From: Escherichia coli | GTDB lineage: Bacteria; Pseudomonadota; Gammaproteobacteria; Enterobacterales; Enterobacteriaceae | Assembly: GCF_003334385.1 (NCBI RefSeq) | Contig: NZ_QOWN01000005.1 | Length of the DNA: 64,000 nucleotides | Strand: one strand, 5' to 3' | Shown: positions 36,738 through 39,416 of the stretch, in pieces | Position numbering within the stretch: position 1 is the first letter of the stretch | Layout of the letters: every line of letters starts with the position of its first letter | Program-made: the position numbers and the translations under genes | The notes under the pieces: model-generated | What the model was told of the DNA's origin: nothing | Database searches by the model: none | What the model saw: the letters and a program-made list of their open reading frames with translations, nothing else

Positions 36738-37502
36738 CTAATTCTTTCGTTGCTCCAGACGACGCAGAGAACGCTCACGGCGGCTCTCTTCACGACTTCT
36801 GTCGAGCAAAATTTCTTCGATAAAGGCCAGATGGCGATGCGATGCTTCGCGCGCTTCTTCCGGCTTACCGGCCATAATCGCTTCAAATATGCGGGTGCGG
36901 TGACTACTCACCAGCGGCAGCATCTCGCGACGCGAATAGAGCAATTCGAAGTTCTGGCGGACATTCTGGGCCAACATCGGCTCCATACACCTTAGCAGAT
37001 GAAGCAGAACCACATTGTGGGCCGCTTCGGTGACGGCAATCTGATACTGGAGTACGGCGTTTGATTCCGCGTCCAGATCGCCAGACTGCTGCGCCAGCTC
37101 TATGGCGTGGTGGAGTTCACGGATGCGTTCCTTGTCTTCATCGGTACTACGCAGCGCGGCGTAATAAGCGGCGATACCTTCCAGGGCGTGTCGTGTTTCG
37201 AGCAAGTCATACTGTGACTCAGGATGGTCGGAGAGCAGCTCCACCAGCGGATCGCTGAAGCTTTGCCATAGGCTGCTCTGGACAAAAGTGCCGCCACCCT
37301 GGCGACGAAGCAACAAGCCCTTCGCTTCGAGACGTTGAATCGCCTCACGCAAGGAGGGACGGGAGACGTCAAACTGTTTTGCCAGTTCGCGTTCCGGTGG
37401 GAGTTTTTCGCCCGGGCGGAGAGTGCCTTCGAGGATCAAAAACTCCAGTTGCTGCTCAATCACATCGGAGAGTTTTGGTTGGCGGATTTTGCTGTAGGCC
37501 AT
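36738..37502 (-). CDS. pdhR: GntR-family pyruvate-responsive repressor
   Basis: Start set at [20 protein letters not shown]... (254 aa); GntR-type HTH. Confidence 0.93.
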
Positions 37503-37533
37503 GAGTTCCTGTCTTAAGCCACTTGCCGAAGTC

Positions 37534-37550
37534 AATTGGTCTTACCAATT
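37534..37550. promoter_or_regulatory. PdhR operator palindrome AATTGGT-N3-ACCAATT
   Basis: Perfect 7-bp inverted repeat 32 bp upstream of the pdhR start; matches the PdhR box as I recall it. Confidence 0.7.
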
Positions 37551-37953
37551 TCATGTCTGTGACGCTAAAGTAACAAAGTATTCACCTTATGTCCATACAG
37601 GTTTTGATTGAAATCATGAAACTGTGCACATTTTAACAACTTGACATATATAACGTTTCAAAGTTGTAACTATGCACAAATGTAGACTTTACGTAGGAAA
37701 GGAGTTTTTTAACGATTATTAAACTATAAAAATCCGAATTGAACCGATTCACTTACCAATTTTGTGATTTTTAATTCAATTAAAACGAATTTAAATTCAT
37801 TCTACATATTGAGAGGGGTTGAGGCTGAGCTTTACAAACGGTTTCTTTTTAAGCAACTCATCTTCAACCATGCATAAAGCGGGTGCATTCGCTGCCGCAT
37901 ACCATTATTCTTGATCTGACGGAAGTCTTTTTGTAACAATTCAAACTTCTTTG

Positions 37954-37971
37954 ATGTAAACAAATTAATAC
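37954..37971. promoter_or_regulatory. candidate TyrR box (TGTAAA-N6-AATACA) upstream of aroP
   Basis: One perfect half-site and one imperfect half-site with correct spacing; aroP is a TyrR-regulon member by established knowledge. Confidence 0.3.
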
Positions 37972-38042
37972 AACAAACGGAATTGCAAACTTACACACGC
38001 ATCACTGCGTAGATCAAAAAAACAACCACCGCACGAGGTTTC

Positions 38043-39416
38043 ATGATGGAAGGTCAACAGCACGGCGAGCAGCTAAAGCGCGGCCTTAAAAACCGCCATA
38101 TTCAGCTTATCGCGCTGGGTGGCGCGATAGGGACCGGGTTATTCCTGGGTAGCGCCTCCGTAATACAGTCCGCAGGGCCAGGGATTATCCTGGGTTACGC
38201 CATTGCTGGTTTTATCGCCTTTCTGATCATGCGTCAGCTGGGTGAAATGGTGGTCGAAGAACCTGTCGCAGGCTCCTTTAGCCACTTTGCTTATAAATAC
38301 TGGGGCAGTTTTGCCGGTTTCGCCTCTGGCTGGAACTACTGGGTACTGTACGTTTTAGTTGCCATGGCTGAGCTGACTGCCGTGGGTAAATACATTCAGT
38401 TCTGGTATCCGGAAATCCCCACCTGGGTTTCTGCCGCCGTATTCTTTGTGGTGATTAACGCCATCAACCTGACCAACGTTAAAGTGTTTGGCGAGATGGA
38501 GTTCTGGTTTGCCATTATCAAAGTTATCGCGGTGGTAGCGATGATCATCTTCGGCGGCTGGCTGCTATTCAGTGGCAACGGCGGCCCGCAGGCGACCGTT
38601 AGCAACCTGTGGGATCAGGGTGGTTTCCTGCCGCACGGCTTCACCGGGCTGGTGATGATGATGGCGATTATCATGTTCTCGTTCGGTGGTCTGGAACTGG
38701 TGGGGATCACCGCAGCAGAAGCTGATAACCCGGAGCAAAGTATACCGAAAGCAACTAACCAGGTTATCTACCGCATCCTGATTTTCTATATTGGTTCGTT
38801 AGCCGTTCTGCTCTCACTGATGCCGTGGACCCGCGTTACCGCCGATACCAGTCCGTTTGTGCTGATCTTCCACGAGTTAGGCGATACCTTTGTGGCGAAT
38901 GCGCTGAACATCGTGGTACTGACTGCGGCGCTCTCCGTGTACAACAGCTGCGTATATTGCAACAGCCGTATGCTGTTTGGTCTGGCACAACAGGGTAATG
39001 CGCCAAAAGCGCTGGCGTCTGTCGATAAACGTGGTGTACCAGTAAATACCATTCTGGTGTCTGCACTGGTAACGGCGTTGTGCGTACTGATTAACTACCT
39101 TGCCCCAGAGTCCGCTTTCGGACTGTTAATGGCGCTGGTGGTATCTGCACTGGTAATCAACTGGGCGATGATTAGCCTGGCGCATATGAAATTCCGTCGC
39201 GCCAAGCAGGAACAAGGCGTGGTAACTCGCTTCCCTGCTCTACTTTATCCGCTGGGTAACTGGATCTGCCTGCTGTTTATGGCGGCGGTACTGGTGATTA
39301 TGCTGATGACCCCAGGAATGGCGATTTCGGTATACCTGATCCCGGTATGGCTGATCGTGTTAGGTATCGGCTATCTGTTTAAAGAGAAAACCGCCAAAGC
39401 CGTAAAAGCGCATTAA
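38043..39416 (+). CDS. aroP: aromatic amino acid:H+ symporter (APC family)
   Basis: 457 aa, polytopic membrane protein; recognised as AroP. Confidence 0.95.
   Translation: MMEGQQHGEQLKRGLKNRHIQLIALGGAIGTGLFLGSASVIQSAGPGIILGYAIAGFIAFLIMRQLGEMVVEEPVAGSFSHFAYKYWGSFAGFASGWNYWVLYVLVAMAELTAVGKYIQFWYPEIPTWVSAAVFFVVINAINLTNVKVFGEMEFWFAIIKVIAVVAMIIFGGWLLFSGNGGPQATVSNLWDQGGFLPHGFTGLVMMMAIIMFSFGGLELVGITAAEADNPEQSIPKATNQVIYRILIFYIGSLAVLLSLMPWTRVTADTSPFVLIFHELGDTFVANALNIVVLTAALSVYNSCVYCNSRMLFGLAQQGNAPKALASVDKRGVPVNTILVSALVTALCVLINYLAPESAFGLLMALVVSALVINWAMISLAHMKFRRAKQEQGVVTRFPALLYPLGNWICLLFMAAVLVIMLMTPGMAISVYLIPVWLIVLGIGYLFKEKTAKAVKAH

What the first reader, a model, noticed from the sequence alone, without database searches (positions are those of the whole stretch)
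37931..37971. Candidate TyrR boxes in the aroP promoter region
Seen in sequence: TGTAAACAAATTAATACA (37954-37971) and a weaker TGTAAC-N6-AACTTC (37931-37948) lie 70-110 bp upstream of the aroP start. Established knowledge: aroP is repressed by TyrR through paired boxes of consensus TGTAAA-N6-TTTACA. The match is imperfect, so this is tentative.
Basis: partly seen in the sequence, partly recalled or inferred. Interest (0 to 1): 0.2.

Follow-up and report, generated by a model that had tools for sequence, protein, structure and literature searches.

The report
aroP TyrR operator: one box misplaced

Summary
The window is E. coli. Its aroP-pdhR intergenic region (37503-38042) is 100% identical to K-12 MG1655, so published work on the K-12 aroP control region applies directly.

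- **Strong box, confirmed.** TGTAAACAAATTAATACA is at 37955-37972. It matches 10 of 12 consensus positions and has the required G-N14-C. A TyrR matrix built only from other TyrR-regulon promoters ranks it first of 63,983 positions in the window. It is conserved across Enterobacterales.
TGTAACAATTCAAACTTC is at 37932-37949. It matches 5 of 12 positions and none in the right half, and it has T where the invariant C should be. It scores -11 bits, is not conserved, and is replaced in about 1059 E. coli genomes.
- **Real second box.** CGGAATTGCAAACTTACA is at 37978-37995, 23 bp towards aroP. It matches 8 of 12 positions, has G-N14-C, and is conserved at +22/+23 in 63% of 60 related promoters. It is the side required by published deletion constructs, which place the weak box further from promoter P3 than the strong box.

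Published mechanism: TyrR bound at the two boxes recruits RNA polymerase to the divergent promoter P3 and so blocks the main aroP promoter P1. This is already known and of low interest.

The parts
37955..37972 (.). Strong TyrR box, TGTAAACAAATTAATACA. It matches 10 of 12 consensus positions and has G-N14-C. K-12 coordinates 121622-121639.
   Evidence: Exact position. Rank 1 of 63,983 with the PWM built without aroP, 17.2 bits. A box matching at least 9 of 12 consensus positions, with G-N14-C, lies upstream of aroP in 76 of the 80 sequences scanned (window plus 79 loci). The region is identical to K-12, where TyrR binding is reported (PMC7142922).
37978..37995 (.). Weak TyrR box (box 2), CGGAATTGCAAACTTACA. 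It matches 8 of 12 consensus positions, has G-N14-C, and starts 23 bp after the strong box on the aroP side. K-12 coordinates 121599-121616.
   Evidence: PWM score 6.3 bits, rank 34 of 63,983. A second site of at least 6 bits lies at +22/+23 in 63% of 60 non-redundant orthologous promoters, against 3% at -23 and 0-2% at every other offset shown. The 23-bp spacing is the same as in the aroF, tyrP and aroL pairs. The sequence is identical in the second E. coli allele. The side agrees with the deletion constructs of PMC7142922.
37932..37949 (.). It is not a TyrR box. It is a variable-sequence, fixed-length spacer between the P3 core promoter and the strong box, and is probably the stretch that PMC7142922 describes as the P3 UP element overlapping the P2 -10 (inference).
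   Evidence: Matches 5 of 12 positions, has T at position 17, and scores -11.2 bits. Not conserved. Replaced by agcattatcataattcag in the allele found in 1059 E. coli genomes. Figure 2 legend of PMC7142922.
37899..37904 (-). -10 hexamer TGGTAT of the divergent promoter P3, which TyrR activates.
   Evidence: PMC7142922 gives the hexamer sequence and shows that mutating it lowers P3 activity. Its reverse complement ATACCA is read at these coordinates.
37906..37911 (+). Conserved TATTCT hexamer, probably the -10 of the main aroP promoter P1, overlapping P3. This is an inference: the mapped start sites could not be read.
   Evidence: Found (as TATTCT, TATTGT in one locus) in all 65 sequences searched. 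It starts 49 bp before the strong box in 52 of them and 48-50 bp before it in 62.
38043..39416 (+). aroP coding sequence (457 aa), the regulated gene.
   Evidence: ORF. RefSeq annotation of the identical K-12 region.
36738..37502 (-). pdhR coding sequence, the divergent neighbour. P3 points towards it.

Best explanation
The segment is the known TyrR operator of E. coli aroP. It has two 18-bp TyrR boxes starting 23 bp apart: a strong box at 37955-37972 and a weak box at 37978-37995. Both lie between the aroP promoters and the aroP start codon.

[quoted passage not shown] From there it recruits RNA polymerase to the divergent promoter P3, whose -10 (TGGTAT) is at 37899-37904 on the minus strand. 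P3 overlaps the main promoter P1, so polymerase held at P3 blocks P1 and lowers aroP transcription.

It lies in the spacer between the P3 core promoter and the strong box.

Shown here: the sequences, the statistics, the conservation and the fixed spacing. Taken from the literature: TyrR binding and the P3 recruitment mechanism. Inferred: the assignment of TATTCT to the P1 -10, and a strong-box centre near -71 relative to P3.
For: - The intergenic region is 100% identical to K-12 MG1655.
- With the PWM built without aroP, the strong box ranks 1 of 63,983 and box 2 ranks 34.
- A pair of this quality at 22-24 bp spacing arose in 0.025% of simulated intergenic regions of the same composition.
- Anchoring 60 non-redundant orthologous promoters on their single best site, 63% have a second site of at least 6 bits at +22/+23, 3% at -23, and 0-2% at the other offsets shown.
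- The 23-bp spacing is the same as in the box pairs at aroF, tyrP and aroL.
- The -10 block starts 49 bp before the strong box in 52 of 65 sequences, although the sequence in between varies.
- Literature: aroP has a strong and a weak TyrR box; P1 is repressed by TyrR, which recruits RNA polymerase to P3; the strong box is next to P3 and the weak box is beyond it (PMC7142922). TyrR binds two sites downstream of the P1 start, and G-N14-C is essential (PMC4374768). Repression needs RNA polymerase at P3 (PMC3167631).
Against: - The primary mapping papers (Wang et al. 1997a, 1997b, 1998; Pittard et al. 2005) are not in the library. I could not read the footprinted coordinates or the published box 2 sequence, so its identity rests on indirect evidence.
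- Box 2 alone is weak. At 6.3 bits, about 30 sites this good are expected per 64 kb by chance.
- The deletion series that fixes the box order was made in Salmonella bongori, not E. coli.
Confidence: 0.9

Rival explanations
1. One reading: the operator is the pair 37932-37949 (weak) plus 37955-37972 (strong), and 37978-37995 is irrelevant.
For: The left half TGTAAC matches 5 of 6 positions, and the element starts exactly 23 bp from the strong box, the usual spacing.
Against: - The right half matches 0 of 6 positions and has T at position 17, so G-N14-C is absent (criterion).
- It scores -11.2 bits, while the weakest site used to build the PWM scores +8.6.
- It is not conserved beyond close relatives.
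- It is absent from the allele carried by 1059 E. coli genomes, which keeps box 2 unchanged.
- The published truncation that removes only the weak box while keeping P3 and the strong box could not be made with this layout.
Confidence: 0.03
2. A three-box operator: in the K-12-type allele, the half-site at 37932-37949 is a third, very weak contact used only by the tyrosine-induced TyrR hexamer, in addition to the two real boxes.
For: It sits in phase, 23 bp from the strong box. The G at position 2 is kept in Escherichia, Citrobacter and Salmonella. The aroF and aroL regions each contain three box-like sites. TyrR forms hexamers that reach several sites (PMC4374768).
Against: Same failures as the first rival: no C at position 17, strongly negative score, no conservation, and lost in the second E. 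coli allele. A TyrR dimer there would occupy the stretch just upstream of the P3 -35 element, where PMC7142922 places the P3 UP element, and would work against P3 activation (inference).
Confidence: 0.05
3. The matches are chance similarity with no regulatory role.
For: The plain consensus scan is not enriched over shuffled sequence. AT-rich intergenic DNA gives many matches at 7-8 of 12 positions.
Against: The strong box is the top-scoring position in the window with an independent matrix. The pair has a simulated probability of 0.025%. Both boxes and their spacing are conserved across Enterobacterales. Published genetics and binding assays support function.
Confidence: 0.02

Closest known systems
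E. coli K-12 aroP regulatory region (promoters P1, P2 and P3, with a strong and a weak TyrR box; Wang, Yang and Pittard 1997-1998, as summarised in PMC7142922 and PMC4374768)
   Same: It is the same locus. The 540-bp intergenic sequence is identical to MG1655, the P3 -10 is TGGTAT, and a strong and a weak box lie between the promoters and aroP.
   Different: Nothing differs in the sequence.
Adjacent strong/weak TyrR box pairs at tyrP, aroF (boxes 1 and 2) and aroL
   Same: An 18-bp palindromic box with G-N14-C and a partner box starting 23 bp away. By established knowledge, the weak box depends on the neighbouring strong box (PMC4374768).
   Different: At those promoters TyrR represses by overlapping the promoter. 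At aroP the boxes lie downstream of the P1 start, and repression works through activation of a divergent overlapping promoter.
aroP-usp control region of PAIusp-carrying E. coli and Salmonella bongori (PMC7142922)
   Same: The same strong and weak boxes and the same P3 -10. Box 2 is identical in sequence.
   Different: The strong box is CGTAAAGAAAAAAATACA, the spacer between P3 and the strong box has a different sequence, and P3 drives the genotoxin gene usp instead of being non-productive. This window has the K-12-type allele without the island.

Membership tests
TyrR box (operator of the E. coli TyrR regulon) | An 18-bp palindrome resembling TGTAAA-N6-TTTACA. At least 10 of 12 matches makes a strong box; fewer makes a weak box (PMC4374768). 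| tested here: met
37955-37972 matches 10 of 12 (strong). 37978-37995 matches 8 of 12 (weak).
TyrR box (operator of the E. coli TyrR regulon) | Invariant G and C 14 bp apart (positions 2 and 17), essential for binding (PMC4374768). | tested here: met
   Met by 37955-37972 and 37978-37995.
   Position 17 is T. The PWM score is -11.2 bits against +8.6 to +22.4 for the 13 sites used to build the matrix.
TyrR box (operator of the E. coli TyrR regulon) | A weak box lies next to a strong box at a fixed helical phase. | tested here: met
   37978 starts 23 bp after 37955, the same spacing as at aroF, tyrP and aroL. The +22/+23 partner is conserved in 63% of 60 orthologous promoters.
TyrR box (operator of the E. 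coli TyrR regulon) | Conserved upstream of the orthologous gene in species that have TyrR. | tested here: met
The strong box and box 2 are conserved across Enterobacterales.
TyrR box (operator of the E. coli TyrR regulon) | Direct TyrR binding (footprint or gel shift) and TyrR-dependent regulation in vivo. | not testable with these tools
   Reported for the identical K-12 region by Wang et al. 1997, as cited in PMC7142922, and shown there by gel shift and deletions for S. bongori. The primary papers are not held.
aroP P1/P3 divergent-promoter repression switch | A divergent promoter P3 overlapping P1, with the strong box upstream of P3 on the correct face of the helix. | tested here: inconclusive
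   The P3 -10 TGGTAT is present at 37899-37904. The strong-box centre is about 62 bp from the -10 centre, or about -71 relative to P3 (inference). The 49-bp spacing from the -10 block to the strong box holds in 52 of 65 sequences. The consensus promoter scan found nothing, and the mapped start sites could not be read.

The most novel reading that the evidence does not exclude
In the K-12-type allele, the in-phase half-site TGTAAC at 37932-37937 is a third, hexamer-only TyrR contact between the strong box and the P3 -35 element. It would make TyrR control of P3 and P1 differ between the two E. coli alleles of this region: the K-12 type in 4365 genomes and the PAIusp type in 1059.
Probability: 0.05. 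Interest if true: 0.3.

Novelty: already known. Interest (0 to 1): 0.08.

Why it matters
It matters mainly for correct annotation. The aroP operator is a textbook case of repression achieved by activating a divergent overlapping promoter. The window carries it unchanged from K-12, so there is no new biology in the finding.

The useful correction is that the weak box is at 37978-37995, not 37932-37949. The cross-species analysis adds a small point: the distances from the -10 block to the strong box (49 bp) and from the strong box to box 2 (22-23 bp) are held almost constant across Enterobacterales while the sequence between them drifts. That pattern fits a mechanism that depends on the face of the DNA helix.

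Tried and rejected
- **Plain consensus scan.** With up to 3 mismatches it gave 20 hits against 26 expected. It does not discriminate, so I replaced it with a PWM built without aroP.
- **Primary papers.** Wang et al. 1997a, 1997b and 1998 and Pittard et al. 2005 are not in the library. A full-text search for the box sequences found nothing. Two searches failed because a term was too short.
- **Promoter and terminator scan of 37500-38060.** It found nothing, so P1, P2 and the P3 -35 could not be placed independently. I left it as a remark.
- **Second PWM hits near pdhR.** The matches at 37530, 37558 and 37569 (8 of 12 positions, with G-N14-C) score 3.8 to 7.5 bits and have no strong partner. The first overlaps a perfect palindrome near the pdhR start. 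I did not pursue them as TyrR sites.

Full report
**Locus.** The window carries aroP (38043-39416, + strand, 457 aa) and, divergently, pdhR (36738-37502, - strand), followed by aceE. The 621 bp around the finding match E. coli chromosomes at 100% identity and are annotated aroP and pdhR. The whole 540-bp intergenic region is identical, base for base, to K-12 MG1655. Window position x corresponds to K-12 position 159,594 - x. Anything mapped in K-12 therefore applies here directly.

**The observation.** Both strings occur once each, one base to the right of the stated coordinates:
- TGTAAACAAATTAATACA at 37955-37972
- TGTAACAATTCAAACTTC at 37932-37949

A plain consensus scan with up to 3 mismatches finds 20 sites in the window against 26 expected. 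Resemblance to the consensus alone therefore proves nothing.

**An independent matrix.** I fetched eight other K-12 TyrR-regulon promoter regions: aroF, aroG, aroL, tyrP, tyrB, mtr, tyrR and folA. I listed their box-like sites and built a palindromic position weight matrix (PWM) from 13 of them, taken from seven of these regions (none from tyrB). No aroP sequence was used. Scores over the whole window:

| Element | Score (bits) | Rank of 63,983 |
|---|---|---|
| 37955-37972 (strong box) | 17.2 | 1 |
| 37978-37995, CGGAATTGCAAACTTACA | 6.3 | 34 |

The 13 sites used to build the matrix score +8.6 to +22.4. In simulations:
- A site of at least 17.2 bits occurs in 6% of 64-kb windows.
- It occurs in 0.6% of 540-bp regions with this intergenic composition.
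- A site of at least 14 bits with a partner of at least 6.3 bits at 22-24 bp occurs in 0.025% of such regions.

**Definition test.** PMC4374768 states the rules. At least 10 of 12 consensus matches makes a strong box and fewer makes a weak one. G and C spaced 14 bp apart are invariant and essential. Weak boxes need an adjacent strong box.
- 37955-37972 matches 10 of 12 with G-N14-C, so it is strong.
- 37978-37995 matches 8 of 12 with G-N14-C, so it is weak.

Starts 23 bp apart are also found for box pairs at aroF, tyrP and aroL. Both flanking candidates have that spacing, so spacing alone does not decide between them.

**Phylogenetic footprint.** One scan of genome contigs with AroP returned 80 loci across Enterobacterales.
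- A box matching at least 9 of 12 positions, with G-N14-C, lies upstream of aroP in 76 of the 80 sequences scanned (window plus 79 loci). In most it starts 70-110 bp before the start codon.
- I anchored 60 non-redundant loci on their single best PWM site and scored every offset from -45 to +45. A second site of at least 6 bits occurs at +22/+23, towards aroP, in 63%. It occurs at -23 in 3%, which are loci where the downstream box happened to score best. The other offsets shown give 0-2%.
- The anchored alignment shows box 2 as (C/T)GGAAT-N7-TTACA in genus after genus.

**Within E. coli.** The control region has two alleles.
- The K-type allele is in 4365 of 5426 complete genomes.
- A second allele is in 1059 genomes. 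I read one of these genomes, strain MSB1_4I, which has a gene annotated tssD in the usp position beyond an IS element upstream of aroP. PMC7142922 reports that PAIusp integrates in this intergenic region. Linking the whole 1059-genome allele to the island is my inference.
- In the second allele the strong box is CGTAAAGAAAAAAATACA and box 2 is unchanged.

**Literature.** PMC7142922 summarises the mapped architecture:
- P1 is the major promoter, P2 lies 21 bp downstream of it, and the divergent P3 overlaps P1.
- TyrR with any aromatic amino acid represses P1 and recruits RNA polymerase to P3.
- The P3 -10 is TGGTAT, which is 37899-37904 on the minus strand here.

Those constructs are possible only if the order is P3, strong box, weak box, aroP. 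That places the weak box on the aroP side, where 37978-37995 lies. [quoted passage not shown] PMC3167631 says TyrR binding alone is not enough and that polymerase must be recruited to P3. The primary papers were not available, so the exact published coordinates of box 2 remain unread.

**Geometry.** A TATTCT hexamer (37906-37911 here) is conserved, next to the complement of the P3 -10.
- It starts 49 bp before the strong box in 52 of 65 sequences and 48-50 bp before it in 62.
- The second E. coli allele has TATCTT in its place; counting by hand in the sequence, it also starts 49 bp before the strong box.

By my own arithmetic the strong-box centre is about 62 bp from the P3 -10 centre, or about -71 relative to the P3 start. 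That position suits a class I activator, and PMC7142922 cites TyrR as one. The Figure 2 legend of PMC7142922 describes a P3 UP element overlapping the P2 -10, and my arithmetic puts that stretch here. These placements are inferences. The consensus promoter scan found nothing.

**Verdict.** The strong box is real, known and correctly identified apart from a one-base coordinate shift. The true partner is at 37978-37995. The feature is already known and unchanged from K-12, so interest is low.

Noticed in passing
window 37880-38045; L090 2905-3091: E. coli has two distinct alleles of the aroP control region: the K-12 type in 4365 complete genomes and a second type in 1059. In the second, box 2 and the P3 -10 are kept, the strong box has a different sequence but is still a TyrR box, and the spacer has a different sequence but the same length. 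The one genome read has a gene annotated tssD in the usp position upstream of aroP, so the allele probably goes with the PAIusp island described in PMC7142922.
   Followed up: partly
L090 1772-2752 (E. coli MSB1_4I): An IS5-like ISKpn26 transposase gene lies between the aroP P3 region and the gene annotated tssD (in the usp position). Since PMC7142922 reports that P3 drives usp, this insertion would cut usp off from its promoter.
   Followed up: no
window 37899-37911 and L002-L081 upstream regions: The -10 block starts 49 bp before the strong box in 52 of 65 Enterobacterales sequences. By eye, in the sequences listed, the final T of the P3 -10 (TGGTAT) is present in roughly a third of the loci, among them Escherichia, Citrobacter, Salmonella and Rahnella. 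Most others read TGGTAA or TGATAA, so the P3-recruitment mechanism may not be universal.
   Followed up: partly
window 17000-17017 (and 16917-16934): The second-best TyrR PWM hit in the window is CGTAATTATTTGGTTACA (14.6 bits, with G-N14-C). It lies in the short region between a 308-aa ORF on the minus strand and a 220-aa ORF on the plus strand, 15-32 bp before the latter's ATG. From my memory of the K-12 map these are probably yadG and can. Three sites of at least 14 bits were observed in the window against 0.45 expected.
   Followed up: no
window 2602-2619: The third-best TyrR PWM hit is TGTGAACTTATTTTTACT (14.1 bits, 10 of 12 consensus matches, with G-N14-C). It lies in the AT-rich region between a 159-aa ORF and a 194-aa ORF, about 200 bp before the latter. 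From memory these are probably folK and yadN. It may be chance in AT-rich DNA.
   Followed up: no
window 37533-37549: A perfect palindrome, AATTGGTCTTACCAATT, lies about 30-45 bp upstream of the pdhR start codon. From memory it matches the PdhR autoregulatory operator. It also produces a spurious TyrR-like match (8 of 12 positions) at 37530-37547.
   Followed up: no
window 37938-37946 and aligned positions in L009-L035: A partly conserved A/T-rich motif, (C/G)AAAATTCA, sits 12-20 bp upstream of the strong box in many genera. It may be part of the P3 UP element or the P2 -10.
   Followed up: no
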